From assembly GCF_000372725.1 (NCBI RefSeq), contig NW_005201791.1:362553-419573 (forward strand): a stretch of 57,021 bases of DNA. The letters are read 5' to 3'. The notes under the pieces were generated by a model, which did no database searches, was not told the DNA's origin, and saw only the letters and a program-made list of their open reading frames with translations. Shown here piece by piece: positions 6,994 to 39,392 of this stretch. The DNA comes from Emiliania huxleyi CCMP1516. Its lineage: Eukaryota. Made by a program: the position numbers and the translations under genes. How positions within the stretch are numbered: position 1 is the first letter of the stretch; the number at the start of each line of letters is the position of its first letter.

Positions 6994-8913
6994 ATGGCGG
7001 CGCGCGGCGAGACGGCTGAGACGGCTGACCACGTAGAGGCGGTCTTCAGAGGTGACGAAGTGGCGGTGCGTGTGTGGCTTGAGGGTGGAGGGCGAGCGAA
7101 CGCCACCCGCGAGCGTCGGGGCGAGGAAGGCGAGGTGACTACTGGCGTAACGCTGCTGATGGACGCCGCCATCGAAGGCCACGAGCGGGTGGTCGAGGTG
7201 CTGCTGCAGCACGGTGCGGAGATCAACCTGCAGGACAGCGATGGCTGGACTGCGCTGGTGTGGGCCGCTTCCGAAGGTCACGATCAGGTGGTCGACCTTC
7301 TGCTGCGGCACGGCGCTGAGATCAACGCGCAGGACAGCAACGGCTGGACCGCGCTGATGGGCGCCGTCTTCGCAGGTCACGGGCGGGTGGTCGAGCTGCT
7401 GCTTCAGCACGGCGCGGAGGCCAACGTGCAGAGCAGCAAAGGCAGGCACCGCACCGCGCTGATGCTCGCCGCCATCAACGGCCACGAGCGGGTGCTTGAC
7501 TTGCTGCTGAGGCACGGCGCTGATGCAGAGGTGCGGGACAACGACGGCGGCACCGCGCTGATGGCCGCCGCCGGCAAAGGCCGCCTCCCCGTCGTGCGCT
7601 GTCTACTGCAGGCGGGCGCAGACACAAAGGCACGCTCTGTGGCCGGCATGACGGCGCTGCAATACGCCAAGGAGGGGGCCAAGCTGGCTACTGCCGACGT
7701 TGCTGGTGGTGCTCCTGCAAAGTACCACGCCGGGTGTGTGCGCGCTCTCACGGAGCACGCAGCGGCACTGAAGGAGGCGGAGGCGGCAGAGAAGGCGGCA
7801 GCGAAGGCGCTCGAGGCCAAGGGGCGGCGCGAGCAGCGCGAGCGGGAGGAGGCGGCGGCGGCGCGAGAGCGCGAGCAGGCTGCGCGCCGGCGCGAAGCAG
7901 AACGAGAGGCGCGCGAGGCGCGCCGGGCGGCGGATGCGGCGGCGCTGGAGGAGCAGAGGCGGGCGATTGCGGCGGAGGCGGAGGCGAAGCTGGTTGCCGA
8001 GCGAGCGGCAGCAGAGGAGACGCTGCGGGCGAGGGAGGCGGAGAGGCGAGCAGCAGAGGAGGCGCAGCTTGCGGAGCAGCGGGTGGCGGCGGCGGCTCGG
8101 AAAGCGGCTCAGGCAGAGGCGGAGCGGCGCGAGAAGGAGGCTGCTGACAAGAGGGCGGAGGAGGAGAAGGCGAAGCGGCGCGCAAAGGCGGCGGAGGCGG
8201 CGGCGGCCAGGAAGGCGGCCAAGGAGAAGAACAATAAGGCCAAGAAGGCGCCGTCTGCCTGCACGCTCGAGGAGGAGCGGAGGGCGCGGGCTGCGGCAGA
8301 GGTTCGCGCACAGGAGGAGAGGGCGGCGCAGCTGGCTGCTGAGCAGGAGGCGGCGAGGCGGGCGGAGCGTGAGGCGGCTGAGCTAGCGGGTGCGGCGGAG
8401 CAGGCGGCGCTGCGCGAGGCTGCGGAGCTGGCAGAGGCGTTGCGCCGGTCAGAGATAGATGCGGAGGAGGAGGCTCTGGCGCGTCGGGTGTCGCGGTGCG
8501 AGGAGGCGGTGAGCAGCGAGTTGACCGGCGGCGGGGACCTGATGCGGCGTGTCGAGCGGCTGGAGGCGAGCCTCGGCGCGGCGATCGAGGGTAGCCTCGA
8601 GGAGCGGGTCGGCGCCATCGAGCGCTTGATCGGGCCAGAGGCGGGAGAGGCGGCGGAGCAGCATCTGCCAGTCACCGAGTCGCTTGCTGCCGTCTCGCTC
8701 GCGGACGCCGGCCTCGACACGGGGCGGCCGGCTGCCCCCGAGTCCACGATGGGGGGCGAGACCACGTGTATCGTGTGTTTCGCGAGAGTCAAGTCGCATG
8801 CTGCGGTCCCGTGCGGGCACCTGTGCGCTTGCGGGCCATGCTCTGAGCTGATGCAAGAGTGCCCGTATTGCCGCGAGCCGGTGATGATGTGGATGGTCCC
8901 GCGTCCGGTCTAG
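6994..8913 (+). CDS. Ankyrin-repeat / coiled-coil / C-terminal RING finger protein (putative E3 ubiquitin ligase)
   Basis: Intronless 639 aa ORF. It has about 5-6 ankyrin repeats (GWTALMxAAxxGHERVVELLL.HGA), a long E/A/R-rich helix, and C-terminal CIVC...HAAVPCGHLCACGPC...CPYCR (IAP/Mib-type RING). Confidence 0.92.
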   Translation: MAARGETAETADHVEAVFRGDEVAVRVWLEGGGRANATRERRGEEGEVTTGVTLLMDAAIEGHERVVEVLLQHGAEINLQDSDGWTALVWAASEGHDQVVDLLLRHGAEINAQDSNGWTALMGAVFAGHGRVVELLLQHGAEANVQSSKGRHRTALMLAAINGHERVLDLLLRHGADAEVRDNDGGTALMAAAGKGRLPVVRCLLQAGADTKARSVAGMTALQYAKEGAKLATADVAGGAPAKYHAGCVRALTEHAAALKEAEAAEKAAAKALEAKGRREQREREEAAAAREREQAARRREAEREAREARRAADAAALEEQRRAIAAEAEAKLVAERAAAEETLRAREAERRAAEEAQLAEQRVAAAARKAAQAEAERREKEAADKRAEEEKAKRRAKAAEAAAARKAAKEKNNKAKKAPSACTLEEERRARAAAEVRAQEERAAQLAAEQEAARRAEREAAELAGAAEQAALREAAELAEALRRSEIDAEEEALARRVSRCEEAVSSELTGGGDLMRRVERLEASLGAAIEGSLEERVGAIERLIGPEAGEAAEQHLPVTESLAAVSLADAGLDTGRPAAPESTMGGETTCIVCFARVKSHAAVPCGHLCACGPCSELMQECPYCREPVMMWMVPRPV

Positions 8914-9660
8914 TTTTGCGGGCCAGATGTGTTGCAAGACCGGCTGCCGCGTGTTATTGAATTTGAATGGGGCAGGCGCGCGCGCGAAATCCCACGAAAG
9001 GGCGAGAGTACCGAGAGACACAGAGACACAGAACACAGTCAGACAGCTCAGACTGGGCTCCGTGGCGACGAAGGTCGCCCGGGACTGGCTCGCCAACGAG
9101 CTCTACGAGCCGTCCCGGCGCGGCAAAATTGATGCGGCCTGCACGCTGCAGGTGGACCGAAAGGTCGCCGACCTGATCACGGCTGCCGGCGCCTCGGCGC
9201 CGGCCGACGCCGTGTTCGGCGGCAGGTTCGCGACGGGCGAGGCGCCCCGCCCGACTACCTCCGCCTCCGAGGCGGACGAGGGCGACGGCGTCGGCGGCGA
9301 TGGCGGGACCGGCACCCACTTTGACCTTTTCGAGCCGGACGGACCCCACCCCCATGGAGGACCTCTGAGGTCCTCCCCAGTCTCCCCCCACCCTACCTCT
9401 GCCCCCCCCTCCCCCCATCCCTCTGCCTCCCATAGGGCAGGATAGCACTAGCATATGCGCCTAGTGCGCACTGGGCCCTCATAGATGTGACCCGCCCACT
9501 CGAGTGCGGCGCCCAGGTGCTAGTGCTTGAGAAGACACCACAAACGCGGCACGGCCCATTTTGGCTGTCTGCGGAGATTCTGTCTTAGCACACACAGTGA
9601 GTCATTCGGAGTCATTCGATGGCCAGAGTGCGATTGTGTGTGTGCGGGAGTTGGTTTGTC

Positions 9661-10512
9661 GGGAGGGAGGGGCAGGCTGCTCACCGAGCTGTAGAGATGT
9701 AGAGCGCTGGAGAGCGCTGTAGAGCTGTAGAGCTCTACATCCGCCGCGGGACGAACTGCCTGCGTTGTAGAGCGATGTAGAGGCGCTCTACAACGTGAAA
9801 TCTCTACAACAAACTCTACATCATAAGCGCGAACGAGGCACGGTCGCTCTCCGACATGAGGCGCGTTGCACTTGCCAGTGCTGCCCTGGCCTTCTGTCTG
9901 CCCGCCCAATGGGTGGGAGGTGCCTCTGCTGCTGTGGCATGCCTCACGGCTGCGACTGGCCGGCGCCTCGGCGCGTCAGCTCGGCTCGGCGTAGCGATCG
10001 TGGCCAGCGCAACTCGCTTGGACTCAACGCTCAGCCAGGAGCTCCCGCACGCGCTGGCGCGAGTCATGGCGCATGCAACGCGCCTGAATGCTCGCCTCGC
10101 CTCGCGCAAATGCGACCGTCCTCGCAGCCGACAGTCCACCGCCTGCTAAAGAAGCACAGCGACGAATGCGGCACCGGCGACGTATGGCAGGCTGGTCATG
10201 ACGCAGTTATAGGGTGTTTTGTGCCGTCAGAGTGACTCTCTGTGTGTCAGGGATAGTCAGGGCCGTCCATCAGAGCTCCAGTAAGCTCGGAGACACCCCA
10301 TTAGCGCGGCTCGACCTCTTTGAGTCACTGCCTTCCCGGCGGTTTGGCTGTAGAGCCTCTACAACAAACTCTGCAGCAAAATCGCGCCCTACATCGCTCT
10401 ACAACGCAGGCAGTTCGTCACGCGGCGGATGTAGAGCTCTACAGCTCTACAGCGCTCTACATCTCTACAGCTCTACAGTGCTCTACACTCTACATCCTCT
10501 ACACCCTCCCTC
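9661..10512. mobile_element. Non-autonomous element with long inverted repeats built of TGTAGAG/CTCTACA units
   Basis: 9688-9785 is a near-perfect reverse complement of about 10384-10475. The outer ends are GGGAGGG and CCCTCCC. Exact termini and target-site duplication were not resolved. Confidence 0.75.
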
Positions 10513-10784
10513 AGTGAGTGGTAGGGCCCCCAAGGGCCTATAGAAATCGCGCCTGCCTCTCCCTTTTTTCTCCCAGTAAGCTAAAAGTACGTACCCGTAC
10601 ACTTCGTCGCTTTCTCACACCGCGTTTGGATGCAAACTTGTGAAATTTTCAGTGAAACGGGATTCACATGAATTTCACATGTGATTGTGCGAAAGTGAAA
10701 GGGTGAAATTTCACTCACGAACCCTGTAGGCCAAGCTAGCGCACACTCGTCTCCGCTCCTGCCCCTCCCACCCGCACGGCCAAC

Positions 10785-13617
<2,833 letters not shown>

Positions 13618-13664
13618 GTATGTACCCGTGTATGTACCCGTGCATCAACAGGGTTCACCCGAGA

Positions 13665-14245
13665 GCTGGGTTCCGGCTCCTACCGGATAGGGGGTCTGTG
13701 CCACTGACTCGCGCCAAAACGCCCTACCTACCTACCTATCCCCAGGCCGCGCAGCGAAGCGAAAAAAGATGAAAATAGGGGGTACCTACCTATTGCAGGG
13801 CCCTTTTGGGCCAAACAAGACCAACCTACCTACCGGGCGGTATGTATTCTCGTATCAGTAGCTAGTGTCGTGTCCACTAGCTCCGAGTAGAGGGGGCGTT
13901 CTGCTGCTAGGGGAAACCCGGAGCGCGGTACTATCCCTCGGAGAGTATTCTTTAGCTCCGAGTAGAGGGGCGGCGTTCTGCAGTTAAGCTAGGGGAAACC
14001 CGGTACACGGAGCCAACCCTCGGAGACCCGTGTTATGGCCCTGCGAACGCGCACCCCCGGGGCTAGGGCTCCCTTGCCCGTAACCCGACACCAATCATCC
14101 GGCCCGCTGGGTGCGCTTCTGAGCTCCCCGGCCCTGGATGTGAGGTTAATGACTGCACTCCAAGTGCTCCAAGTGCTACCTATCTGGGAGGGAGGGGCCA
14201 GCCAGTGCAACAGACCCCCTATCCGGGTAGGAGCCGGAACCCAGC
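13665..14245. mobile_element. MITE-like element with about 40-bp inverted repeats
   Basis: GCTGGGTTCCGGCTCCTACCGGATAGGGGGTCTGT (13665-) pairs with ACAGACCCCCTATCCGGGTAGGAGCCGGAACCCAGC (-14245). An internal direct repeat TAGCTCCGAGTAGAGGGG..CTAGGGGAAACCCGG occurs twice. Confidence 0.7.
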
Positions 14246-15015
14246 GTCGCCATACTCGACACCCGATGCGTATAACCGATGCGTATAAAAGAATTTTAGA
14301 AAGTTAAAGGAGATAGGAAGTGGTAGACGCCCGAGGGTGGGCGACGGCTAGCACCACACCTCTCCTTGAAATCCCTGTAAACACCGCACTCGCAGCTAGC
14401 CGGGGGTGCAACACGCGCCGCTGGCGCTGCCCCGTCCCGGGGGAGGGGTAGGGGGCAAGGCGGGCGAGCACTCGCCGTCGGCTGCTCGGTGCGCGACACG
14501 GTGCCAGAGGCGCCTCGAGAACAGTCACAGAGTGGTCGGAAGCCCGCCGCTCCCAGTCCCCCAAAAGAAGTCAGGTGCGCTGCAACCTCGCGCCGCCGCC
14601 GCCCGCCTGGCTAGGAGGGGAAGTCGACGCCGTTGCTCGGATCCACGGTGCACTCGACCGTGTGCTGATGGAACGGTGCGGGGTCAGGAGCCGCTGCAGG
14701 TCGCGAGCATCGACGCGCCGACCGACGACAACCTCTTTGGACTTTGCAGAGCCCGTGCTAACGGAGCCGCTGCCTCTCTCTCGCTCAACGGAGGAGACGC
14801 GCCGCTGCAGGTGTCGTCCGTCGTGCCGCTGCCGCCCGGCGACAACTGTCGGTGGCCCGATGCCACCGTAGCTGTACGCACAGGCAAACTAGTGGGAACG
14901 ACCTCACGCACGCGACGGACGGAGACTGGCGGTTTTTTTTTGGTTCGTTCTTGTGGTTGGTGTAGAAGTATGGACCCGGGGTCCCTACCCACGCAAAAGA
15001 GCCGGAACCCAAACG

Positions 15016-18000
15016 ATGGTGGGTGCCGGTTCCCAAAGCTGCTTTGACGCGGTCGTGCTAGCGGCTGAGCGAGGCGAGGAGGAGGCGGTGCTGGCGTGGC
15101 TCGAGGGCGGCGGGTGGGCCGACGCGACGTGCGAGAGTGGCGGCGTGAGCGGCGTCACGCTGCTGATGGGCGCCGCCCGCTACGGCCAAGAGCGGGTGGT
15201 CGAGTTGCTGCTGCAGCGCGGCGCGGAGATCAACCTGCAGGACAGTAACGGCTGGGCCGCGCTGATGACTGCCGCCCAGGAAGGCCACGAGCGGGTGGTC
15301 GAGCTGCTGCTGCGGCGCGGCGCGAAGGTCAACCTGCAGGACAGCAACGGCGCCACCGCGCTGTTGCACGCCGCCTACAACGGCTGCGAGCAGGTGATCG
15401 AGTTGCTGATTCGGCACGGCGCGGAGGTCGACCTGCAGATCAACGGCGTCACCGCGCTGATGGGCGCCGCCTTCCTCAACCACCCCGCCGTCGTGCAGCG
15501 CTTGCTGCGGGCGGGCGCAGACGCGGCGCGCACTACTAACGGCAAGACGGCGCTGCAGCTGGCCAAGGAAAAGGGCCACGCCGAGTGCGTCAAGGTCTTG
15601 TCGGAGGCGGCGGCGGCTGCAGACGGCCGGGCAGGGGCGGGCGGCGCTTCCTCGGGCGCGGCAGCTGCAGCGGCAGCGGTGGACGCGCCGCTGCTCAGAC
15701 AGCGAGTCGTGCTCGGCGGGCTCTCTTCCCGCCCCGAGCTGAACGGGCAGTGGGGCGTGGCGGGGAGCTTCGAGGGCGGCCGGTACGCGGTGGCGCTCGA
15801 GGGCGGCGGCGAGAGCGTGCGGGTGCGGCCGGGTAATCTGTCGCTGGCGGCGGCGGAGCCGAGCGGTGGCGTGGCAGTCTACGACGAGGTCGTGGCAGCG
15901 GCTGGGCGAGGCGACGAGGAGGCGGTGCTGGCGTGGCTTAACAGTGGCGGACGGGCCAACGCGACGTACGAGCAAGGCGGCGTGAGCGGCCTCTCGCTGC
16001 TGATGGGTGCCGCTGCCCACGGCCACGAGCGGGTGGTCGAGTTGCTGATACGGCGCGGCGCTGAGGTCAACAAGCAGAGCAGCAATGGCGTCACCGCGCT
16101 GATGAGCGCCGCCGTCCGAGGCCAGGAGCGGGTGGTCGAGTTGCTGCTTCGGCACCGCGCGGAGATCAACCTGCGGAACAGTGGCGGCTTCACAGCGCTT
16201 ATTGACGCCGCCTTCAAAGGCCACGAGCGGGTGGTCGACTTGCTGATACGGCACGGCGCTGAGATCAACCTGCAGAACGGCGAAGGCGGCACCGCGCTGA
16301 TTCTCGCCGCCGACCAAGGCCACGAGCGGGTGGTCAACTTGCTGATTCGGCGCGGCGCTGAGCTCAATTTGCAGAGCAGCGACGGCGGCACCGCGCTGAT
16401 GAACGCCGCTTGCTTCAACCACCCCGCCGTCGTGCGGCGCTTGCTGCGGGCGGGCGCAGACACCGCGGCGCGCACTGCGAGCGGCAAAACGGCGCTGCAG
16501 TGGGCCAAGGAGCAGGGCCACGCCGAGTGCGTCGAGGCTTTCAAGAAGCACGTCCAGGATATGCTGGCGGGACGGCCCACTGCGACAGCAGCCGGCGGCG
16601 AAGGCGCGGGCGGCGCTTCCTCCGGCGGCGCTTCCTCGGCTGGATCGAGAGTCGCGAAGACGCCATCTCCAGCGGTGGCGGCGGGGCGGGCGCCGAGCGG
16701 TGTCGTGGCAGTCCCCGATGCGGTCGTGGCAGCGGCTGAGCGAGGCGAGGAGGAGGCGGTGCTGGCGTGGCTTGACAGTGGCGGGCGGGCCGACGCGACG
16801 TACGAGAGAGGCGGCGTGAGCGGCCTCACGCTGCTGATGGGCGCCACCGTGTATGGCCACGAGCGGCTGGTCGAGCTGCTGCTGCAGCGCGGCGCTGAGG
16901 TCAACCGGCACGACAGCAACGGCGACACCGCGCTGATGAATGCCGCCAGCCAAGGCCACGAGCGGGTGGTCGAGCTGCTGCTGCGGCACGGCGCGGAGGT
17001 CGACCTGCTGAACAGCGCCGGCTACACCGCGCTGATTCTCGCCGCCGGCGAAGGCCACGAGCGGGTGGTCGATTTGCTGTTTCGGCACGGCGCGGAGATC
17101 AACTTGCAGAACGGCGAAGGCGGCACCGCGCTGATGGCCGCCGCCGGCCCGGGCCACGAGCGGGTGGTCGACTTGCTGACACGGCACGGCGCGGAGGTCA
17201 ACCTGCAGGACAGCGACGGCGTCACCGCGCTGATGGTCGCCGCCGGCTACGGCCACGAGCGGGTGGTCGAGCTGCTGTTGCAGCACGGTGCTGATGTCAA
17301 CTTGCAGAACAGCAACGGTGGCACCGCGCTGATGATCGCCGCCATATTCAACCACCTCACCGTCGTGCGGCGCTTGCTGCGGGCGGGCGCAGATGATGCG
17401 GCGCGCAGTGCGAGCGGCGAGACGGCGCTGCAGTGGGCCAAGGAGAAGGGCCACGCCGAGTGCGTGCGCACCCTCGAGGAGCACACGTCGAGCACAGCAG
17501 AGGCTGAGGGGGAGACGGCGGTCGCAGAATCAGCCGAACAGGTCGCGGCGGCCGCACGCGAGGCGGGAGCGGCAGCGGTGGCGGCGGAGGCGCGCGATGC
17601 TGCCGAGGCTGCGCTGCGCGAGGCGGTTGAGGCGTGCGAGCGAGGCGACGCCGATCTCGAGGCGCTCAGGGCGGCGATCAACGCAAACACCGAAGCCGCC
17701 GACGGCTCGGAGGCGCTGCGGGCGGCGCGGCGGCTGCGCGACGAGCTGGCGGAGCGAAAGGTCCGCGAGGCCAGGGCGCTGAAGCGGCAGCGGCAGAAGG
17801 AGGAGAAGGCGGCGGCGAGGCAGGCGGAGGCGGCGGCGCGGGCGGCGGAGGAGGAGGCGCGGGCGGCGGACGAGGCGCGGGCGGCTGAGGCAGCTGCGGC
17901 GGCGCGGGCGGCGCGGGCATCGGAGGAGGCGGATGAGGCGGCGCGGGCGGCGGAGGAGGCGGAGGCGGCGTCGCGGGCAAGGGAGGAGGCGGAGGCGAGG

Positions 18001-19557
18001 GCAAGGGAGGAGGCAGAGGCGAGGGCAAGGGAGGAGGCAGAGGCGAGGGCGAGGGAGGAGGCGGCAAGGGAGAGGGAGGAGGCGAGGATGAGGGCGGAGG
18101 CGGCGGAGGCAGCGGCGGAGGCGGCGGCTGTAGAGGCGGCAGTGGCGGCCGTGGCGGCGGCGGAGGCTCAAGAGGCGGCGGCAGCGGAGGCGGCGGCAGC
18201 GGCAGCGGCAGCTGCGGCAGCGTCGGCGGCGGCGACTGTCGCCGCCCTCGCCACCGCCGCCGCGCCGCCCGCTGCCGTCCCTCTCGACGAGCTCATCGCG
18301 GCGACCGACGGCTTTGCCGAGGCGCGCAAGGTGGGCGAGGGAGGCTTCGGGCGCGTCTACCGCGCCGACGCGCTGCCGTCTCTCCCGCGCGTCGCTTGCG
18401 GGTTCGCCGTCAAGACGGCGTTGGTCGGTGTCGGCGCCCAAGGCCTCGCCGAGCTGCAGAGCGAGGTGCGCACGCTCAGCACGGCGTGCCACCAGTCCCT
18501 GCTCCCTCTGCTCGGCGCTTGCCTGGCGCCGGCGAGAGCGTGCCTCGTCTACCCCCTCTGCCGCGGCGGCAGCCTCGAGGACCGCCTCTACCGCGCTCCA
18601 GCCGCGCTGGAGCGGCTCCGCATGCTCGGCTTCGAGACGCCGCCTCCGCCGCTCTCCTCTGCCGCACGGCTCCGCGTGCTGCGCGACGCCGCAAGCGCGC
18701 TGCACTACCTGCACACGCGCTCTCCGATGATCCTGCACCGCGACGTCTCGGCGGGCAACATCCTGCTCGACGAGCGCGGCAACGGCTACCTCGCCGACGT
18801 GGGCCTCGCGCGCGCGGCAGAGGCGACGGCCGGCAGCAGCAAGCAGGTGTCGCACCTGTCGACGCAGCGCCTCTTCGGTAAGCTTGGGTACATGGACCCG
18901 ATCATTTCGCAGAGCGGGCAGGCGTCAGCGCTGACCGACGGCTATGCGCTCGGCATCACGCTGCTCGTCGCCTTGACGGGCCGCGGCGCCGTCGGCCTCC
19001 TCGACGAGTGCGACGATGCGCTTGAGGAGCCCGACACGGCGGAGGGATCGATCGCGGCGGCCGACGCGGGCTGGTCGGCGGCGCAAGCCGAGGAGTTGGC
19101 GCGGCTGGTGGTCGGGCTGGCTCTTGTGAGGAAGAAGAGGCGGATGCCGCTCGCAGAGGCGCTGCCGCGGCTGGAGGCGCTAGTCGAGGCGGCGGGGGAG
19201 GTGGAGGAGAAGGTTGGGGCCGAGGAGCGCCAGTGTGACCTCTGCTACGACGCGCCGCGCTCGGTCCGTTTCGCGTGCGGCCACGCGCTGTACTGCGAGA
19301 CGTGTGCGCCGCGCGTGCTGGAGCGCGACAGCAACTGCCCGGCCTGCCGCCAGCCGGCGCTGCCCATCGCCGCAACTGGGCGGCTGGTGGCGGAGCAGGC
19401 GACGTTTGTCCACCAGCCGCCCTCGCGCCCCGTGCCCCAGGCTCAGCCCGTGGGCGTCACGGCAGCGGTCGGCAGGCGAGGGGGGAGAGGGGGGCGTGGA
19501 CGTGGCGGGCGGGGCGGGCGGGGCGGGCGGGGCGCGGGGCGCGGCGGCTCTGCTTAG
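15016..19557 (+). CDS. Triple ankyrin-cassette / SH3-like module / coiled-coil / IRAK-Pelle(RLK)-like kinase / RING / RGG protein
   Basis: Intronless ORF of about 1510 aa with three capped ankyrin arrays. Kinase motifs: LDELIAATDGF, GEGGFGRVY, FAVK, HRDVSAGNILL, DVG, GYMDP. These are followed by RING CDLC...CGHALYCETC...CPAC and an RGG tail. Start codon uncertain. Confidence 0.92.
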   Translation: MVGAGSQSCFDAVVLAAERGEEEAVLAWLEGGGWADATCESGGVSGVTLLMGAARYGQERVVELLLQRGAEINLQDSNGWAALMTAAQEGHERVVELLLRRGAKVNLQDSNGATALLHAAYNGCEQVIELLIRHGAEVDLQINGVTALMGAAFLNHPAVVQRLLRAGADAARTTNGKTALQLAKEKGHAECVKVLSEAAAAADGRAGAGGASSGAAAAAAAVDAPLLRQRVVLGGLSSRPELNGQWGVAGSFEGGRYAVALEGGGESVRVRPGNLSLAAAEPSGGVAVYDEVVAAAGRGDEEAVLAWLNSGGRANATYEQGGVSGLSLLMGAAAHGHERVVELLIRRGAEVNKQSSNGVTALMSAAVRGQERVVELLLRHRAEINLRNSGGFTALIDAAFKGHERVVDLLIRHGAEINLQNGEGGTALILAADQGHERVVNLLIRRGAELNLQSSDGGTALMNAACFNHPAVVRRLLRAGADTAARTASGKTALQWAKEQGHAECVEAFKKHVQDMLAGRPTATAAGGEGAGGASSGGASSAGSRVAKTPSPAVAAGRAPSGVVAVPDAVVAAAERGEEEAVLAWLDSGGRADATYERGGVSGLTLLMGATVYGHERLVELLLQRGAEVNRHDSNGDTALMNAASQGHERVVELLLRHGAEVDLLNSAGYTALILAAGEGHERVVDLLFRHGAEINLQNGEGGTALMAAAGPGHERVVDLLTRHGAEVNLQDSDGVTALMVAAGYGHERVVELLLQHGADVNLQNSNGGTALMIAAIFNHLTVVRRLLRAGADDAARSASGETALQWAKEKGHAECVRTLEEHTSSTAEAEGETAVAESAEQVAAAAREAGAAAVAAEARDAAEAALREAVEACERGDADLEALRAAINANTEAADGSEALRAARRLRDELAERKVREARALKRQRQKEEKAAARQAEAAARAAEEEARAADEARAAEAAAAARAARASEEADEAARAAEEAEAASRAREEAEARAREEAEARAREEAEARAREEAAREREEARMRAEAAEAAAEAAAVEAAVAAVAAAEAQEAAAAEAAAAAAAAAAASAAATVAALATAAAPPAAVPLDELIAATDGFAEARKVGEGGFGRVYRADALPSLPRVACGFAVKTALVGVGAQGLAELQSEVRTLSTACHQSLLPLLGACLAPARACLVYPLCRGGSLEDRLYRAPAALERLRMLGFETPPPPLSSAARLRVLRDAASALHYLHTRSPMILHRDVSAGNILLDERGNGYLADVGLARAAEATAGSSKQVSHLSTQRLFGKLGYMDPIISQSGQASALTDGYALGITLLVALTGRGAVGLLDECDDALEEPDTAEGSIAAADAGWSAAQAEELARLVVGLALVRKKRRMPLAEALPRLEALVEAAGEVEEKVGAEERQCDLCYDAPRSVRFACGHALYCETCAPRVLERDSNCPACRQPALPIAATGRLVAEQATFVHQPPSRPVPQAQPVGVTAAVGRRGGRGGRGRGGRGGRGGRGAGRGGSA

Positions 19558-19979
19558 TGCCTTTACACTTCATCGCAGCGGCAGCCCGCACGCTCACGGA
19601 GGGTGCCCGGGTCTGCGTTGCCCGACCCCCCCCCCTCCGGCTCCTGCACTTGAGTTTGTGCGCGGGAACACAGGGAAGACAAGTTTTCGTGTGGGGTGTG
19701 GGGTGTGGGGTCTCGCGTCCTGAAAAAAGCGTCGGCACACTCGAACAAAAAACAAAACGCGCGCAAAGTGTCGCGCGCGGCAGCGTAGCTAGCGTAATGG
19801 TTGGGTAGTAGGGCTAGAGGGTCGCTCTACACTTAGCCTCTGCAGCGAGCGAGCGCTCAACTTAGCCCCCGCACGGAGCCGGGCTCAGACTTAGACGCTG
19901 GAAGGCCGGGGGCCATGAACTTAGACGACACGAGGCCAACTCCGGGTAAAACCCGGGTAATACCTGCAAAAGTCCAGGT

Positions 19980-29377: not shown

Positions 29378-29411
<34 letters not shown>
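29347..29411. repeat. (CACG)n/(CA)n microsatellite
   Basis: Directly visible. Confidence 0.95.
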
Positions 29412-29414
<3 letters not shown>

Positions 29415-30466: not shown

Positions 30467-30510
30467 CGAAGAGGGGGGGTCTGAGGCTCGGTAACTAGCA
30501 GATACTGTGT

Positions 30511-30573
30511 TCTCGAGGTTCTCGAGGTGGATATCCTTAGGCCGCGTTGGGTAGCGAGGATTGGTGTAACCCG
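30511..30573 (-). repeat. Family D 63-bp dispersed element
   Basis: Matches 23073-23135. Confidence 0.85.
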
Positions 30574-30673
30574 AGCCACGGAGGCGTGTTTTCTGGCGGC
30601 CGACCGTCAGTGCACGGAGTTGCCACTTCTCCGACTGCCCCGGCTAGTTCCCGAGGTCGTCGGGTGTGACCCC

Positions 30674-30706
<33 letters not shown>

Positions 30707-31287: not shown

Positions 31288-33075
31288 ATGGCCTACTGTT
31301 CATCAAACCAGTTCAACTCGGCATTTGTGCTCGTGCTCTTTGGCGCCGTCCTTCTGCTCTCCAGTCTCGACGTGCAGCCCGCACGCGTCGCCGACGTGCG
31401 GTGGACGCGCAGCGATGACGGGCGCCGGCCGGCCGCTGTGAGCGTTCACGCAGGAGATCGTCGACGCGCAGGGGGGACTTCGGAGGTGCCGCGAGCGGAG
31501 GACGCGCGGCTGAGGGCCAGCCTTCCAGCTAACCGTCCCGCCGTCGGCACATGCGAGTCGCTCGAGTGCGCGGCGCGGCTTGGGGTGAGCGAGCCGTCGT
31601 GGGTGGACCTCACCTTCCAGCCACGGATCGACTGGAGGGGCGGCGGCGTGCGAGGTGACTGTGTCGCCGGTGAGCTCGAGTACATCATGCCCAAGTACTG
31701 CTCTCCCCGCGCCAAGAGGGCGGGCGGGTGGCCTTCTGAGGCGCGGCTGCGCGAGGCGGACGTGCACGCGAGCGGGCTGCCGCAGGCGGGAGAGATGGGG
31801 AGAGATGGAGAGACATGGGGAGAGATGGGGAGAGAGATGGGGAGGGGTGATGAGAGCTGGACGTGCACGCGAGACGGGCCGCGGAGACGAGACGAGATGG
31901 CCCGAGAGATGACCCGAGATGCCCCGAGATGCCCCGAGATGCCCCGAGATGACCCGAGATGACAGGGAGGGCAGCCGGGAGCAACAGCCGCGCAGCAAAC
32001 GAGCACCATAAATTGTGCACGCCTTCCTGCTGCGCCTCTCTCTCTGAGGAAAACTCCTGGCCTGCCGCAGGCGGGCCTGGGCGAGCTGGCTGCGCTGCTG
32101 GGCGGCAAGAGCGCTGCTCGTGGTGCGAGACTCGGTGATGGAGCAGGTTTGACCAGAAGAAGACTGTGACAACCCTAGGCAAGACGCTGCTCGTGATGGG
32201 CGACTCGGTGATGGAGCAGTTTTACAACACGCTGCAGTGCCTCGCGGCGAAAGAGTCGCTCAAGGTGCGAGATAGGGGGAGATATGGGGAGATATGGGGA
32301 GATACGGGGAGATAGGGGGAGAGATGCAGTGCCTCGCGGCGAAAGAGTCGCTCAAGGTGCGAGATAGGGGGAGATACGGGGAGATACGCCCCCCCTCCCT
32401 GGAAGCGATGATTGAGTGCGCCTGCTCCAAGCGACCGCCACTGTGCCACACCGGAGTCCGCTTCCCCCCCCCCTCGCTCAAGGTGCGAGATATGGGGAGA
32501 TATGGGGAGATATGGGGAGGTGTGCCACACCGGAGGCCGTCCGCTCCCCCTCCTCACTCATGGTGCCCCACTCGACCCAATTAGTTATTAATTAACTGTT
32601 AATTAAATGTTAATTAACATCGAGGCGCCCCACTCGGCCTCGCACGAGTCCTTCCTCCCCATATCTCCCCATATCTCCCCATATCTCCCCATATCTCCCC
32701 TCAAGGTGCCCCACTCGGCCTCGCACGAGTCCTTCCTGCTCGCGACCAAGCCCCTCTGGAACAGAGGCAAGCGGAAGAAGCCGCCCAAGCTGCCCGTCGA
32801 GGTGGCCAGCGGGATGCGGATGACGTATGCTGCTGTGAACAGCGTCTCCTCACACCTCTAGCTGTGAACAGGTGGCCAGCGGGATGCGGATGACGTATGC
32901 TGCTGTGAACAGCGTCTCCTCACACCTCTAGCTGTGAACAGGTGGCCAGCGGGATGCGGATGATGTATGCGCGCGTGACGACGATGCAGCCGGACGAGGT
33001 CGAGGCGGCAATTGGCTCGGCCGACGTTGTGCTCCTCAACTGGGGACTTCACTACCAGGTGGACACACACACACA

Positions 33076-33122
<47 letters not shown>

Positions 33123-34618
33123 GCACCCCGCCCACCCACGCGCGCGCGCACCGGGCCTTGCACCTTTAGTGCCGCGGGGCTCCTGTCGTCTAGACGTGGA
33201 GTCGGAGGGCTGCCCTGCCCTTCACCACCTCGTGTGTGTGGAGAAGTGTACCTAGCTTACCTCACCTTACCTACCAGGAGATGGACGGCTACCGCACGGA
33301 CCTGCACCACTCGATGGCACGCCTCGAGGCCTTCGCGGCGGAGCCGGGCCGGGCGGCGCTCTTCCAGGAGACGGGCGCGCAGCACTTCAAATCGTCAGAC
33401 CGGCGCGGCTATGCCACCGGCGAGTGGGAGCAGCGCGACAAGAGCAGCGACAAGCTCTGCTCGTGCCAGCGGACGGAGGACTTCAACGTCAACACACGCA
33501 ACCGCGTGCTGCATGAGGCGAGCGAGATGCAGCCGAGATTATGCAGCCGAGATTATGCAGCCGAGATGCAGCCGAGATGCAGCCGAGATGCAGCCGAGAT
33601 GCAGCCGAGATGCAGCCGAGATGCAGCCGAGATGCAGCCGAGATGCAGCCGAGATGCAGCCGAGATGCAGCCGAGGTGTTAGCGCCGAGAAGCAGCGCCG
33701 AGAAGTAGCGCAACCGCACGAGTCAGATAGATTGTGTGCAGCCCCCCCCCCCNNNNNNNNNNNNNNNNNNNNNNNNNNNNNNNNNNNNNNNNNNNNNNNN
33801 NNNNNNNNNNNNNNNNNNNNNNNNNNNNNNNNNNNNNNNNNNNNNNNNNNNNGGGGGGGTTTTTTCCGGGGAAGGGGGGGGCGGCTTTTAAAATTTTAAA
33901 ACGGGGGGGGTTTTCCCCCCGGGGAGGGGGAGAAGCGCCAAAAAAAAAGGGAAAATTTTTTTTTGTTCCAGGGGGGGGGGGATTTTAAGGTAAACACCCG
34001 CAACCGGTTTTTTCTTGAGGGGAGGGAAATCCCCCCGAATTTTTCCCCCCGAAATTTTCCCCCCGAAATCCCCCCGAAATCCCCCCAAAATCCCCCCGAA
34101 ATCCCCCCGAAATCCCCCCAAAATCCCCCCGAAATCCCCCCAAAATCCCCCCGAAATCCCCCCAAAATCCCCCCGGGGTTTTAGCCCCGAAAAACACCCC
34201 CAAAAATTAGCCCCCCCCCCCGATTAAAAAAATTTTGGGGCCCCCCCCCCCCCCCCCAAAGGTGCTGGGCTGGGGGTCCTACCCCCACGGGGGGTTCCTC
34301 CCCTTTTAAAACCTCACCCTGCCGGGGGGGGGGCCCCCCCCCCCCCCCCCCCACGCGCGGCACTGCCCTTGCTCCCCTGCGAGCTGGGTCTCCTCACACC
34401 CGCCGTGCGCTCTTAACAGGCGGTGGCACTTTGGAAACTGCACGCACCGCCCCAACGGGTGGAACTACGACACGTGCTGCGACTGCACCCACTTCTGCTT
34501 CTCGCCGGCGATGTGGGGCGCCCACCTGCACAGCCTGCTCGCGGTTCTGCGGCGTACGGCGGTCGCGGAGAAGCCGGCTGAGACCGTGCGCGAGAGGGTC
34601 GCGCGAGGCGCAGCTTGA
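31288..34618 (+). CDS. TBL/PC-esterase (SGNH-type) family putative polysaccharide O-acetyltransferase, type II membrane, multi-exon
   Basis: N-terminal TM helix, then GKTLLVMGDSVMEQFY (GDS), DVVLLNWGLHY, FQETGAQHF and C-terminal DCTHFC (DxxH). Confidence 0.85.
33059..33277 (+). mobile_element. Family A element forming an entire intron
   Basis: GT...AG intron whose whole body aligns with 53655-53852 (reverse) and 56445-56589. Confidence 0.8.
33523..33675. repeat. 11-bp intronic tandem repeat (GAGATGCAGCC)n
   Basis: Directly visible after a GC donor. Confidence 0.92.
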
Positions 34619-35445
34619 GCGAAACACGCCGACGAGGGCTTACCCACAGGATTTAGGCATCGCTAAGAAAAAAACGGCAACGAGGGGGGCCTTAATTAAA
34701 AAGAGAAAAATCACCTTAACACTCGATCGTCTCGCCCTCCCTCGCTATCGCAGCGCACTCCCGCTCGCCGTCTGTGAGCCTAGCGCAGCGGCTAGCGCGA
34801 ACTCGCCGTCTGAGCCTAGCGCAGCGGCGAACTCGCTCTGAGCCTAGCGCAGCGCCTCGGAAAACACCATTTTGGCTCGCCAACAAGCCCTCCAATAATA
34901 AATAAATAGAGCAAGCCCTCCACGCCCCTTAATTAAGCCCTTATGATAGAGGGAGCGGACCGTGAGTTGAGGAAATCGAGGGACGCGACCCACTTCGCCA
35001 CAGACGGTCCCGCGCCTCGCCGCTATGACGGGCACACGCCCCGCACCGTCCGCTGTGTGCCCGTCTTTGTCCGGAGTGAAAAGTCCAACGCGCTCGTCGG
35101 TGGCGGCTTCCCTCAACCTGCGCCGCGCTCGGCGAACCTCGACAGCGCTTTCGGTGGCATGCAGCTCTTTGCGACAGAAGCCTGGAGAGCAGCTCCTCTG
35201 CTGCTCACACACTCTGCACAGTTGACACAGCCTACTGTGCGGCTGCCACAGCTGTGACAGCGATGGGCTCGCCCTCACTGGCCCTCAGTCACTTGTGCTG
35301 CGGCTTGTGTGAGCGACACTGCTCGGCGACTGCCGGCACACTGTGAGACCATGGGTGTGAGGTTAAACCACGCTACCAGCGCTTGGTCACATCGGCCCCG
35401 AGATCAGATCCTTCTACTCTGTTGATGACAAGACTTGTCTACTGG

Positions 35446-35811
35446 CTAAAGCCGAGCAGGAGGGCCCAGCGCATAACCCTTGGTCAACTCAGGGTCCACA
35501 CCCCGTATCCGGTTTGAAAATTCTTTCTGGACGGCTACGGTGAGGACGACGGCTTCTGAGGAAGCCGTCGCCCGTGCCTTGCCTGTCGCGTGAATCGTGT
35601 TGTGCGACCGGATCCGCCCGGCGGCGCCCTCGCCCGGCGGCGCGAGCCCTTGCGCAGCCGGGTCTTGGTCTTGCGCAGCCGGGTCTTGCGCAGCCGGCTG
35701 GCGGCGCTGTTCGCGCTCGGCCTTGTCCTCGGCGAGCTGAGAGAGGATGCGGCGGCGCTCGGTGTCGTCCTTGCGGCGGAGCGCCTTGAGCTCGGCAGCC
35801 TTGTTAGACAT
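35446..35811 (-). CDS. Short hypothetical coiled-coil protein or fragment
   Basis: ATG-initiated 121 aa ORF with ERRRILSQLAEDKAEREQRR; no recognisable domain. Confidence 0.3.
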   Translation of the reverse strand: MSNKAAELKALRRKDDTERRRILSQLAEDKAEREQRRQPAAQDPAAQDQDPAAQGLAPPGEGAAGRIRSHNTIHATGKARATASSEAVVLTVAVQKEFSNRIRGVDPELTKGYALGPPARL

Positions 35812-36120
35812 TTGGCCAGGGTCCCCCCGGTCGGATCGGTCTTCTTGGCAGCACCTTTTCGGCCGGGGTCACCTTCGGCCGCGACTGGTTCGGGCTCCGT
35901 GATGTGAGGGAAGCGGATGGAAGGAGAGAATTTCCATGTTACGAAAAACGCAAAAACAAAATCCACGGCATGCACACGCACATGTCAACCATGAGTGCGA
36001 GAGATAGGGCTAGCAGTAGCCCGCTGTGGGCATCTGCCAGCGTCGGTCACCGGCCGACAGGTGCCGCGGGTGAGGCGGCTCGGCTGCATTTTGAACCATG
36101 ACCACTCTGAGCAGGGCCGT

Positions 36121-36253
36121 GTATGTATGTATGTAGTAAGGTGAAGAACAGTCAGGCTCGGACTGGACACCAACGCGGTATGGGTGGACGCAAGACAGAT
36201 GATGACGACACGCACGAGCGACACACAGACACAAACAAGCTCACAAGACACAC
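36121..36253 (-). mobile_element. Family B element (may extend further to about 37300)
   Basis: Aligns with 11929-12061; the tail here is (TACA)n. Confidence 0.75.
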
Positions 36254-37430
36254 AGCCAGCGGGCTGCCACACATCCTGAGTGGGCGTACACATCACTCAG
36301 GCCACGTCCCCCCTGTCGCCCCCCCCAGCACTCCAAGGTGCCAAGAGACAAACAACAGCACAACAACACAGACAGGCGACAGGCGCGAACGTGTGAGACT
36401 AGAGCAGGCTTGCTCCGCCTCTAGCAATCTCGTCGCCGGCCGCAAGGCACGGACGAGACCGTGTGTGGGGTCTTGTGAGGTGTCTATGGACGCCCTCCTC
36501 ACAGGCTATTGGCCAGCCGCTAGCCCTAACTCGCACTCATGGGTGACGACAGTTCATTGGATGAGTGGTTGCGAGCAGAGGCGCGTGTGCTGAATCTAGA
36601 TCGCACGCCGTGGCATATGACTTGGGTAGGCGTGCGACCGCAGCGCGCCCGCCGAAGGCTCGACCGGGCGCGCGTGTCAGCCAGAAGTTTGCCAGTAGAG
36701 CGATCCTGGTCTTTCCGAAGACGAGCCCCGCGCCACGGGTGCCAGCCGTGCCTCCGCGGGAGCCGCCTCTCGAGCCGCGTCCCGCCGGCACTGTCCCTGA
36801 GTGCGTCCCGCCTTGGTTGGCGACACGCACTCGACGAGGGCAGTCCAGCCGACGGGAACGTGTCGCGCGCCGGCGACGAATGCGGCGGGGTGGGTGTGGG
36901 TACCGAGCGCCGCTTCGGCGAAGCGAGGTTGGCAGGCGCCCCTCACGAGTCCGTTCAGACATGCCACACGCCCCTCGCAAGCGAGGTTAGTAGGCGCCCC
37001 TGGCGAGACCCGCAAGAGATGCCACACCACCCTCGTACCTATACTCCACCAATGAGAAGGTGAAGAGATCTTATCGGCCAGGCGGGCAGGGCAGGCGGGC
37101 GGGCGGGCGGGCGGGGTCGGTGGAGACTATTCCTAGCGGGGTATCCCCTCCCGACCCACCTTCCGAACGGCCTACACCCTATCCAGGCTCCGAACATAGT
37201 TGGTTTACGGGTCAGTCGGGGGACCCACTAGGGGGCGGCCCCTCACACGACTGCCCAGTGGGCCCAGGGATGGCGGTGGCGAGTCACTCCGGAGCAGAAT
37301 AGAGGTGCGCACGAGGCAGGTGGCATAGCACTGCCCACCCCCTTCCACCCCCCCTCGCCCTTCGCAGCCTCGGCCGTGCTTTGGTGGGGTCCGCTTCCTC
37401 CTATCCAGCTTGCAGCCCGAACCCTGGCAC

Positions 37431-39392
37431 ATGACCAGGTGCGAGGCGGCGGTGGGCGGCGCGGGCGGCGCCTCCTCGGGCGAAGCGGCCTCTTCCAGCT
37501 CGCTGGGCAGCCTTCCCAAAGAGGCGGCGGCAGCAGCTATTAAAGGCGACGACGCGGCGCTGCTGGCGTGGCTCCACAGCGGCGGGCGGGTCAACGCGAC
37601 TTGTGGGGCAGGCAATGTGAGCGGCATCACCGCGCTGATGACCGCCGCCCAGTTTGGCCACGAGCGAATGGTCGAGCTGCTGCTGCAGCACGGGGCGGAG
37701 ATCAACCTGCAGAGCAGCGACGGCGACACCGCGCTGATGGACGCCGCCAACAACGGCCTCGAGCGAGTGGTCGAGCTGCTGCTGCAGCACGGGGCGGATG
37801 TCAACCTGCAGGACAGCAAAGGCTACACCGCGCTGACGGTCGCCGCCAGCAACGGTCACCCCGCCGTCGTGCTCCGCCTGCTGCGGGCGGGCGCGGATAC
37901 AAAGCTGCGCTCTGAAAGCGGCAGGACGGCGCTGCAGTGGGCCAAGCAGAAGGGCCTTTCCGCGTGCGTCGAGGCTTTCCGGCAGCACGTCGCGGAGGTG
38001 ACTGCGAGCCGGCACGAGGCGGCGGCGGGCGGCGCGGGCGGCGCTTCCTCGGGCGAGGCGGCGGCGGGTTCGACGGCCGCGGCTTCTTCGGCCGTGACAG
38101 CAGCTATCCAAGGCGACGAGACGGCGCTGCTGGCGTGGCTCGACAGCGGCGGGCAGGTCAACGCGACTTGCGGGATGGGCGATGTGAGCGGCATCACAGC
38201 GCTCATTGGCGCCGCCCGGTTTGGCCACGAGCGGGTGGTCGAGCTGCTGCTGCAGCGCGGCGCGGAGATCAACATGCAGAACAGCGTCGGCGGCTTCGCG
38301 CTGATGGGCGCCTCAAGCCAAGGCCACGAGCGAGTGGTCGATTTGCTGATTCGGCGCGGCGCTGACGTCAACCTGAAGAACAGCGACGGCGACACCGCGC
38401 TGATGGACGCCGCCACCAACGGCCACGAGCGGGTGGTCGAGTTGCTGCTTCAGCGCAGCGTGGAGATCAACCTGCAGAACAGCAACGGCGGCACCGCGCT
38501 GATGTACGCCGCCTACAACGGCCACGAGCGAGTGGTCGAGCTGCTGCTGCAGCGCGGCGCGGAGATCAACAAGCAGGACAGCCGAGGCGGCACCGCGCTG
38601 ATGGGCGCCGCCAACAACGGCCACGAGCGAGTGGTCGAGCTGCTGCTGCAGCACGGGGCGGAGATTAACATGCAGAACAGCAAAGGCTACACCGCGCTGA
38701 TGGTCGCCGCCAGCCACGGTCACCCCACCGTCGTGCTCCGCCTGCTGCGGGCGGGCGCAGACACGGCGCTGCGCTCCGAGAGTGGCAGGACGGCGCTTCA
38801 GCTGGCCAAGGAAAAGGGCCACGCCGAGTGCGTGCGCGTCATCGAGGAGCATGCGGCGGCGGAGGCGGAGGTGGAGGCAGCGCGGCATGCCGAGGCGCTG
38901 CTGGCGGAGGAGGAGGCGGAGAAGGAGGCGGGGGGGCGCGACAAGGAGAGCAAAAAGGGCAAGAAGAAGAAGAAGAAGGGGAAGGGCGGAGGTGGAGGCG
39001 CTGGGCCGTCGCGGGAGCCCGAGGATGAGGCAGCGCTGGCGGCGGGAGAGGAGGCGGAGTTGGCGGCGGCGCTCGAGGAGAGCGCGAGGCTGGAGGAGGA
39101 GAGGCAGGCGCCCGACGAGCAAGCGTCGTCCTCTTTGGCTGCAGAGAGGCCACCTTCGGTGGAGGAGGAGGAGCCGCCGGCCGACTTCGTCTGCCCAATC
39201 ACGACCGAGGTGATGAGCGACCCGGTGATGGCAGCGGATGGGCAGTCGTACGAGCGGATGGCGATCGAGCGCTGGCTCGCGACCAAGTCGACCAGCCCGC
39301 TGACGGGCGAGGAGCTCGAGTTCACTCGGCTCTTCCCAAACCACACACTCCGCCGGGTGATCCGACAGTGGCAGGAAACCGCTCGCAGCTGA
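37431..39392 (+). CDS. Double ankyrin-cassette / U-box protein (putative E3 ubiquitin ligase)
   Basis: Intronless. Two capped ankyrin arrays, then 'AEALLAEEEAE..KGKKKKKK', then U-box PADFVCPITTEVMSDPVMAADGQSYERMAIERWL...SPLTG...PNHTLR. Confidence 0.92.
   Translation: MTRCEAAVGGAGGASSGEAASSSSLGSLPKEAAAAAIKGDDAALLAWLHSGGRVNATCGAGNVSGITALMTAAQFGHERMVELLLQHGAEINLQSSDGDTALMDAANNGLERVVELLLQHGADVNLQDSKGYTALTVAASNGHPAVVLRLLRAGADTKLRSESGRTALQWAKQKGLSACVEAFRQHVAEVTASRHEAAAGGAGGASSGEAAAGSTAAASSAVTAAIQGDETALLAWLDSGGQVNATCGMGDVSGITALIGAARFGHERVVELLLQRGAEINMQNSVGGFALMGASSQGHERVVDLLIRRGADVNLKNSDGDTALMDAATNGHERVVELLLQRSVEINLQNSNGGTALMYAAYNGHERVVELLLQRGAEINKQDSRGGTALMGAANNGHERVVELLLQHGAEINMQNSKGYTALMVAASHGHPTVVLRLLRAGADTALRSESGRTALQLAKEKGHAECVRVIEEHAAAEAEVEAARHAEALLAEEEAEKEAGGRDKESKKGKKKKKKGKGGGGGAGPSREPEDEAALAAGEEAELAAALEESARLEEERQAPDEQASSSLAAERPPSVEEEEPPADFVCPITTEVMSDPVMAADGQSYERMAIERWLATKSTSPLTGEELEFTRLFPNHTLRRVIRQWQETARS

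What the first reader, a model, noticed from the sequence alone, without database searches (positions are those of the whole stretch)
6994..39392. Natural DARPin-like variable ankyrin receptor family with swappable effector ends
Seen in sequence: three intronless paralogues (6994, 15016, 37431) are built from the same capped cassette. The N-cap is '...G[DE]..A[VL].[AV]WL..GG..[ND]AT'. It is followed by 2-5 internal 33-aa repeats and a C-cap 'P.VV.RLLRAGAD...G.TALQ.AK'. The genes carry 1, 3 and 2 cassettes. The framework (GHERVVELLL..GAE.NLQ) is almost invariant, even in DNA. The positions xxxGx-TALMx-AAxx differ in almost every repeat (AAxx = RY, QE, YN, AH, VR, FK, DQ, SQ, GE, GP, GY, QF, NN, RF, TN, IE, SE, IN). 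The outputs differ: RING, kinase+RING, U-box. Established knowledge: these variable positions largely match the target-binding positions randomised in designed ankyrin repeat proteins, and highly conserved but locally hypervariable repeats typify fungal NLR/HET sensors. Inference: a recombining repertoire of binders that routes diverse targets (for example viral proteins) to ubiquitination, i.e. a candidate algal innate-immune system.
Basis: partly seen in the sequence, partly recalled or inferred. Interest (0 to 1): 0.85.

Follow-up and report, generated by a model that had tools for sequence, protein, structure and literature searches.

The report
Shuffled ankyrin binder repertoire in alga
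Three genes in this algal DNA belong to a large family of antibody-like ankyrin proteins whose predicted binding-face positions change faster than silent sites and whose tails (ubiquitin-ligase or kinase domains) differ between otherwise alike members, so they likely form a recognition repertoire against foreign proteins, though no target or activity has been tested.

Summary
Observation confirmed. Three ORFs carry 1, 3 and 2 capped ankyrin cassettes (23 repeats, 20 distinct AAxx pairs) and end in RING, kinase+RING and U-box.

They belong to a large family, probably of Gephyrocapsa (Emiliania) huxleyi. 69 metagenome loci plus the window gave 252 distinct internal repeats with 247 distinct five-site combinations.

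Diversifying selection holds at the binding-face sites (2ΔlnL about 315; neutral simulations with gene conversion 0-0.9). Effector ends and linkers are under purifying selection.

Tails are swapped: one linker leads to U-box or RING. One gene pair has its first cassette replaced. Some members are predicted surface receptors (signal peptide, ankyrins, membrane helix, IRAK/RLK-like kinase or RING).

Against the reading:
- The same positions vary in unrelated ankyrin arrays.
- The fungal 85% conservation criterion is not met.
- Older members are stable across samples.
- 14 of 61 loci are frameshifted.
- No target, activity or infection response is shown.

Best reading: an NLR-free non-self recognition repertoire (0.6); a new variant of a known kind.

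The parts
6994..8913 (+). gene g1: one cassette, Ala/Glu/Arg-rich linker, RING (639 aa)
7024..7749 (+). g1 ankyrin cassette: N-cap, 4 repeats, C-cap
8758..8883 (+). g1 C3HC4 RING (PF13920); the same end type occurs in P0003, P0010, P0042, P0009, L030, L037
15016..19557 (+). gene g2: three cassettes, spacer module, linker, kinase, RING (1513 aa)
15046..15600 (+). g2 cassette 1 (3 repeats)
15682..15855 (+). 58-aa beta-rich spacer module (RPELNG motif) with no Pfam family; found beside cassettes in several loci
15883..16542 (+). g2 cassette 2 (4 repeats)
16717..17475 (+). g2 cassette 3 (5 repeats)
18271..19185 (+). IRAK/Pelle/plant-RLK-like kinase domain; its catalytic loop has Ser where relatives have Lys
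19222..19356 (+). g2 RING
37431..39392 (+). gene g3: two cassettes, Lys-rich linker, U-box (653 aa)
37518..37979 (+). g3 cassette 1 (2 repeats)
38085..38843 (+). g3 cassette 2 (5 repeats)
38883..39065 (+). Lys-rich linker, shared with members that end in RING instead of U-box
39177..39383 (+). U-box (PF04564)

Best explanation
These genes are members of a large family of capped ankyrin cassettes with a near-constant framework and positively selected variable positions, joined to differing RING, U-box or kinase ends, and they likely act as a repertoire of binders that would recognise foreign proteins and tag them for ubiquitination or trigger signalling. SHOWN: family breadth; excess replacement changes at repeat positions 3, 8, 11, 12; purifying selection on ends and linkers; different ends behind the same linker; repeat-number variation; loss of linkage along the repeat. 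INFERRED from ankyrin and DARPin structure: the variable positions line the concave binding face. INFERRED mechanism of diversification: the conserved framework DNA allows unequal crossing-over and short-tract gene conversion within and between loci; recombination in the shared linkers swaps ends; members that drift from the consensus drop out of exchange and freeze. INFERRED function: cytosolic members (the three here) bind a target and ubiquitinate it through RING or U-box; members with a predicted signal peptide and membrane helix sense outside the cell and signal through an IRAK/RLK-like kinase or RING. The selecting agent (giant virus, bacteria or parasite) is not identified.
For: 252 distinct internal repeats give 247 distinct five-site combinations. 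Pairwise pN 0.61 against pS 0.32 at the five sites and 0.16 against 0.22 in the framework; window alone 0.62 against 0.28. At fourfold-degenerate codons of sites 3, 8, 11 the third base is as conserved (heterozygosity 0.17-0.24) as in the framework. Codon model: best null -11650.5, best alternative -11492.8, 2ΔlnL about 315, against 0-0.9 in 4 of 4 neutral simulations, 3 of them with conversion. dN/dS is 0.10-0.13 for the RING and 0.17-0.64 for U-box, linker, spacer and kinase, with one frameshifted locus at 0.81. P0003 and P0010 match the g3 linker at 63 of 70 and 61 of 72 residues but carry a g1-type RING (51 of 73), not a U-box. P0013 and P0355 are identical at 552 of 590 residues after cassette 1 but at 64 of 99 within it, with 3 against 4 repeats. 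r2 between polymorphic sites falls from 0.055 to 0.007 along the 99-nt unit (permutation p 0.001). The kinase's best PDB matches are IRAK1 and plant receptor kinases. Membrane-type members: L040 (ShK, cassettes, hydrophobic helix, kinase), L030 and P0134 (helix, RING). Precedents for this evolutionary pattern are fungal NLR ankyrin repeats and Ectocarpus LRR/TPR receptors.
Against: No target, activity or infection response was tested. The same positions are the most variable in unrelated arrays (site 3 in 15 of 15 scorable proteins of 17 examined, site 11 in 14 of 15). In 12 clusters of older, diverged members, sequences from different contigs are nearly identical, with no excess at the variable sites (7 of 456 against 35 of 2574); three divergent pairings were left out of that count. 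Sites 1 and 32 lose support when the silent rate varies per site, and single-site tests gave false positives in 1 of 4 simulations. 14 of 61 loci have repeats in more than one frame, and pairwise framework dN/dS is about 0.7, so many copies may be decaying. In the window the nearest repeat lies in another gene for only 4 of 17. Short-read contigs could be chimeric. Repeats were selected at 72% or more framework identity, which favours a conserved framework.
Confidence: 0.6

Rival explanations
1. An internal arms race or a substrate-adaptor expansion: the cassettes bind fast-changing products of the alga's own selfish elements, or diverse host substrates, with no outside pathogen involved.
For: Positive selection and E3 ends fit any conflict. 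The three window genes have no membrane helix. A high-copy non-coding repeat begins just downstream of g2.
Against: Members with predicted extracellular cassettes and an IRAK/RLK-like kinase point outwards. No link to mobile elements was found.
Confidence: 0.14
2. Self/non-self recognition between algal cells or cell-surface roles (mating type, allorecognition, coccosphere assembly) rather than defence.
For: Predicted surface members. Ankyrin proteins are reported as upregulated in a calcifying strain (PMC13334186, one passage); whether they belong to this family is untested. Fungal repeats of this kind were first found in allorecognition (abstracts).
Against: A structural role does not predict a large family diversifying at the binding face. 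The coccolith proteomics paper cited there has no 'ankyrin' in its main text (supplements not read).
Confidence: 0.1
3. Neutral expansion: a recently amplified, conversion-prone, partly pseudogenised family in which the normally tolerant ankyrin surface positions simply drift.
For: Frameshifts in 14 of 61 loci; weak framework constraint; the same positions vary in all ankyrin arrays.
Against: Drift predicts pN no greater than pS. Observed pN is 2.4-2.8 times pS at sites 3, 8 and 11, and neutral simulations with conversion give 2ΔlnL of 0-0.9 against about 315. The ends are conserved.
Confidence: 0.1
4. A targeted mutator of the diversity-generating-retroelement type, or assembly chimeras, creates the pattern.
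For: The variable codons are mostly NNC (third base C in 79-86% at sites 3, 8, 11), like adenine-mutated AAC codons. Most loci come from two short-read assemblies.
Against: Adenine is not favoured at sites 3 and 8 (13-26% at the first two bases). No reverse transcriptase appeared in the 30 segments scanned. The window's own 23 repeats show the same signal. The linker+RING arrangement occurs in four diverged proteins.
Confidence: 0.06

Closest known systems
Fungal NLRs with conserved, diversifying ankyrin repeats (Podospora; PMC4986451, passages read)
   Same: Ankyrin repeats under positive selection on the concave face; repeat-number polymorphism; combinatorial pairing of sensor and effector domains.
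   Different: No NACHT or NB-ARC domain here; internal identity is below the 85% criterion; cassettes are short, capped and multiple; effectors are C-terminal E3 or kinase domains.
Ectocarpus ROCO-LRR and NB-ARC-TPR candidate receptors (PMC3341825, abstract and first part of Discussion read)
   Same: Algal repeat receptors with diversifying selection, repeat shuffling and birth-and-death; the immune role is inferred there too.
   Different: There the repeats are LRR or TPR, one per exon, with a GTPase or NB-ARC core. Here they are ankyrins in open frames with no such core.
Plant XB3/XBAT ankyrin-RING E3 ligases (PMC3596331 abstract; PMC3661601 search listing)
   Same: N-terminal ankyrins with a C3HC4 RING.
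   Different: 187 proteins over 29 species with 2-7 ankyrins; no hypervariable repertoire, U-box or kinase swapping in the abstract seen. Orthology not tested.
Nematode and plant F-box and MATH-BTB adaptor expansions (recalled, no call)
   Same: Large ubiquitin-ligase families with positively selected substrate-binding domains, proposed to degrade foreign proteins.
   Different: Those are cullin adaptors with other binding folds. Here single-chain RING or U-box ligases sit on ankyrin cassettes.
IRAK/Pelle and plant receptor-like kinases
   Same: The kinase domain's best structural relatives; some members have a predicted ectodomain-membrane-kinase layout.
   Different: The predicted ectodomain is ankyrin, not LRR, lectin or LysM; g2 itself has no membrane helix and ends in a RING.
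DARPins (designed)
   Same: N-cap, 2-5 internal repeats and C-cap; top sequence and fold matches; 4 of 6 variable positions shared.
   Different: A natural family; the residue after the TALM motif is the most variable here, and two DARPin-variable positions are mostly fixed.

Membership tests
Fungal-type NLR (STAND) | central NACHT or NB-ARC domain | tested here: not met
   none in the three genes, the 30 segments or the relatives scanned
Fungal-type NLR (STAND) | high internal conservation (85% identity over 100 aa) | tested here: not met
   mean within-locus amino-acid identity 64%, median DNA identity 77%; criterion
Fungal-type NLR (STAND) | positive selection at binding-face repeat positions | tested here: met
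Fungal-type NLR (STAND) | repeat-number polymorphism between alleles | tested here: inconclusive
   P0013/P0355 have 3 against 4 repeats; g1-type members 4 to 11; allele and paralogue cannot be told apart; older members are stable
Ectocarpus ROCO / NB-ARC-TPR receptors | LRR or TPR repeats with a ROC-COR or NB-ARC domain, one repeat per exon | tested here: not met
   ankyrins in continuous frames, no such domain
XB3/XBAT ankyrin-RING ligases | ankyrin repeats plus C3HC4 RING | tested here: met
   g1 and g2; not g3
XB3/XBAT ankyrin-RING ligases | descent from the plant XB3 clade | not tested
   no tree built; no XBAT-named protein among the 120 listed hits
RING / U-box E3 ligases | intact domain above the Pfam cut-off | tested here: met
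   42.3, 35.9 and 63.4 bits against cut-offs of 27, 27 and 21.4
RING / U-box E3 ligases | ubiquitin ligase activity | not testable with these tools
   needs an in vitro assay
IRAK/Pelle/RLK kinases | kinase domain closest to IRAK/RLK | tested here: met
   the named hits among the 44 PDB sequences at E below 1e-20 are IRAK1, IRAK4 and plant receptor or cytoplasmic kinases; similarity only, no tree
IRAK/Pelle/RLK kinases | complete catalytic motifs | tested here: inconclusive
   Gly loop, Lys and HRD present; Ser in place of the catalytic-loop Lys found in five relatives and L023; DVG in place of DFG
Diversity-generating retroelement | adenine-biased variable sites, template repeat, reverse transcriptase | tested here: inconclusive
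   no adenine bias at sites 3 and 8; no reverse transcriptase in 30 segments; whole genome not held

The most novel reading that the evidence does not exclude
A bloom-forming haptophyte runs a natural DARPin library of hundreds of genes as its innate immune system. One recombining ankyrin cassette serves both as a cytosolic virus-targeting ubiquitin ligase and as the ectodomain of IRAK-like surface receptor kinases, with no NLR core, and its allele content helps set strain-specific resistance to the giant virus EhV.
Probability: 0.3. Interest if true: 0.92.

Novelty: new variant of a known kind. Interest (0 to 1): 0.7.

Why it matters
Strains of this alga differ in susceptibility to the giant viruses that end its blooms, and the recognition genes are not established (PMC3834299 and PMC8531018, passages read, name other candidates; the latter has no mention of ankyrin). 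This family offers a concrete, genotypable candidate with defined variable positions. It would extend repeat-based variable receptors to haptophytes without an NLR or ROCO core, add ankyrin-ectodomain receptor kinases as a design, and show evolution converging on the DARPin layout. Short-read assemblies shatter the family (no contig spans g2 in 4 of 4 runs), which may be why it has been overlooked.

Tried and rejected
No whole genome is held, so there is no genome-wide count.

Viral contigs gave 0 matches to the DNA motif and no confirmed relative, so there is no sign of a viral origin at that sensitivity.

Of the 114 loci, 45 had no family repeat and were dropped. The scan covered 50 of 64 parts, and flanks were fetched for only 80 loci.

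The first likelihood test (2ΔlnL 374, 1289, and 41.8 for the window alone) had its null at the edge of the grid. I use the refitted value of about 315 and treat the window-only figure as an upper bound. Single-site tests are not trusted alone.

The position map had a faulty pattern and was redone.

The single-sequence model is mediocre (pLDDT 71, pTM 0.65). It confirms only the ankyrin fold and was not used to place residues.

The profile search was swamped by long generic ankyrin proteins.

The Atlas gave only unnamed clusters for the spacer module, and a 0.77 MIB/HERC2 lead too weak to use.

Summed contig depth is not a copy number and is used only as a hint. Coverage over g1 and the neighbouring NHL-BTB gene was not obtained, so their expression and copy number stay open.

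Three look-ups of earlier findings returned nothing.

Ten literature searches were run (two concerned DARPins and XBATs), and none listed a description of this family. The original genome paper and all supplements were not seen, so absence from print is not established.
Full report
OBSERVATION. The three ORFs, their domains and the 1/3/2 capped cassettes are as described. The 23 repeats carry 20 distinct AAxx pairs. Numbering the unit from the residue before the conserved Gly, positions 1, 3, 8, 11 and 12 are hypervariable while framework codons are almost fixed. Whole repeats are 65-88% identical in DNA. None of the three proteins has a membrane helix by hydropathy.

ORGANISM. The window is mostly 60-74% GC. 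A U-box fragment clustered with family member P0015 is named by NCBI as Emiliania huxleyi CCMP1516. I infer Gephyrocapsa (Emiliania) huxleyi or a close relative. No genome was held.

FAMILY SIZE. A 21-base framework motif returned 114 loci from a partial scan of metagenomes. 69 hold ankyrin frames of this type and 45 were dropped; 66 of the 69 come from two assemblies that partly duplicate each other. Their best long matches to the window's genes are mostly 80-87% identical in DNA. Laying four public runs on g2 placed 21,995 contigs from one run, and none spanned the gene. Summed depth over the repeats was 138-397 times the flanks, and over the kinase 39-154 times, in the three runs not on record as RNA. 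The tool warns that this is no copy number; I take it only as a hint of a very large family. Viral contigs gave nothing.

SELECTION. An ungapped scan at 72% or more framework identity gave 333 units, 312 distinct, of which 252 are internal repeats with 247 distinct five-site combinations; site 8 shows 19 amino acids. Tree-free counts give pN 0.61 and pS 0.32 at the five sites and 0.16 and 0.22 in the framework; the window's 17 internal repeats alone give 0.62 and 0.28. Third bases of the variable codons stay as conserved as in the framework while the first two are scrambled. A codon model with a refitted null gives 2ΔlnL of about 315; four neutral simulations, three with heavy segment exchange, give 0-0.9. 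Sites 3, 8, 11 and 12 keep support with site-specific silent rates and sites 1 and 32 do not; such single-site tests misfired in one simulation. Ends, linkers and the spacer module have dN/dS of 0.10-0.64, apart from one frameshifted locus at 0.81.

BINDING FACE. DARPins are the top sequence and fold matches. In the printed alignments the DARPin-variable positions coincide with sites 1, 3, 11 and 12. Site 8 is fixed in some DARPins but varied in ANK-N5C, and two DARPin-variable positions are mostly fixed here. That DARPins bind through randomised positions on the concave surface is from PMC8229355 (passages); the count of six library positions is partly recalled. The same positions top the variability list in unrelated arrays, including sponge and fungal ones, so the positional match alone says little. 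The selection signal is the informative part.

SHUFFLING. Linkage between polymorphic sites decays to background within the unit. Repeats in one locus are scarcely more alike than repeats in different loci (22.2 against 23.7 differences). Nearest neighbours lie in the same locus for 31 of 224 pairs, above the 1.9% chance share, and in another window gene for only 4 of 17; exchange is therefore partly local. L029 shows a tandem two-repeat duplication. Complete in-frame cassettes hold about 1-8 repeats (21 cassettes). Members with g1-type ends hold 4, 5, 8 and 11. P0013 and P0355 are the same gene outside cassette 1 (552 of 590) but have different repeats inside it. Against ongoing turnover everywhere: 12 clusters of diverged members are nearly identical across contigs, with no excess at variable sites (7 of 456 against 35 of 2574; the P0013/P0355, P0001/P0345 and two gapped pairings were excluded). 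This fits exchange confined to near-consensus repeats, but these clusters are also the ones that assemble.

SWAPPED ENDS. The g3 linker leads to a U-box in g3, L056, P0001 and P0035, and to a g1-type RING in P0003, P0010, P0042 and P0009. L029 joins a g2-type N-cap to a g1-type tail. The kinase is closest to IRAK1 and plant receptor kinases. Its relatives also sit behind other modules, including a second ankyrin framework. Several members have a hydrophobic N-terminus and/or a helix between cassettes and end: L040 with ShK and kinase, L030 and P0134 with RING, P0013 and L026. This is a Kyte-Doolittle scan only, and it missed the candidate helix of P0005.

EXPRESSION. Six RNA runs from three studies hold 25-33% of g2's sampled words. 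In the one RNA run laid, a high-copy non-coding repeat has 0.013 of the ankyrin depth against 0.52-1.08 in the other runs, which argues against DNA carry-over. That run is another organism code and contigs only. Family transcription is probable; transcription of these three genes is not shown. 14 of 61 loci have repeats in more than one frame, from pseudogenes or assembly errors.

MECHANISM. Most likely (0.6) this is a non-self recognition repertoire: variable cassettes bind, RING or U-box ubiquitinates, or the kinase signals, and recombination on the conserved framework renews specificity. Binding, activity and targets are inferred. Rivals are internal conflict or substrate adaptors (0.14), cell-surface or allorecognition roles (0.10), neutral expansion (0.10), and a mutator or artefact (0.06).

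KNOWN SYSTEMS. [quoted passage not shown] Its architecture overlaps plant XB3-like ligases (PMC3596331, abstract). Ankyrin expansion without assigned function is reported in Bathycoccus (PMC3491373, passages). PMC13334186 notes ankyrin genes upregulated in a calcifying strain (one passage); PMC10290126 has no 'ankyrin' in its main text (word search). PMC8602657 (passages) gave only the general DARPin layout. PMC3834299 and PMC8531018 were seen as passages. The F-box/MATH-BTB parallel is recalled. The ten searches listed under Tried and rejected showed no description of this family; supplements and the original genome paper were not seen.

VERDICT. A real feature and a new variant of a known kind; interest 0.7.

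Noticed in passing
window 3184-4890 (-): An NHL-repeat propeller plus BTB domain in one open frame: another repeat domain tied to a ubiquitin-ligase adaptor, 2 kb from g1. P0133 joins a similar NHL part to the ankyrin cassette, possibly a gene-calling artefact.
   Followed up: partly
P0390, P0395, P0397, P0398, P0394, P0396: The g2-type kinase(+RING) end also occurs behind PF00514/PF02985, PF00595, PF00806 and PF00313 domains (recalled as ARM/HEAT, PDZ, Pumilio, cold-shock) and behind a second ankyrin framework with the same variable pattern, suggesting a wider sensor-by-effector network.
   Followed up: partly
window 48231-48318 (+): A diverged copy of the RPELNG spacer module away from any ankyrin cassette, with stop codons nearby.
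   Followed up: partly
window about 19746-19900: Start of a high-copy non-coding repeat: deep in the three non-RNA runs, nearly absent from the RNA run.
   Followed up: partly
window 48890-51973 (+): A 1027-aa open frame with several near-identical AP2-like units.
   Followed up: no
window 52282-53304 (-): An ankyrin gene of a different kind, without the family framework.
   Followed up: no
window 44945-46873 (+): A Pro-rich frame with PAN and nucleoside-hydrolase matches.
   Followed up: no
window 14995-15015 and 37410-37430: Similar short GAACCC-containing stretches precede the start codons of g2 and g3; several loci translate alike there. An exact pattern search found none.
   Followed up: partly
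L064:1084-3237 (-): A cassette and g2-type linker continue into an unrelated tail with a SAP domain.
   Followed up: no
P0012, P0057, P0081, P0018, P0190: Unrelated proteins with conserved ankyrin arrays varying at the same positions, one with N-terminal U-boxes; similar repertoires may exist in other lineages.
   Followed up: partly
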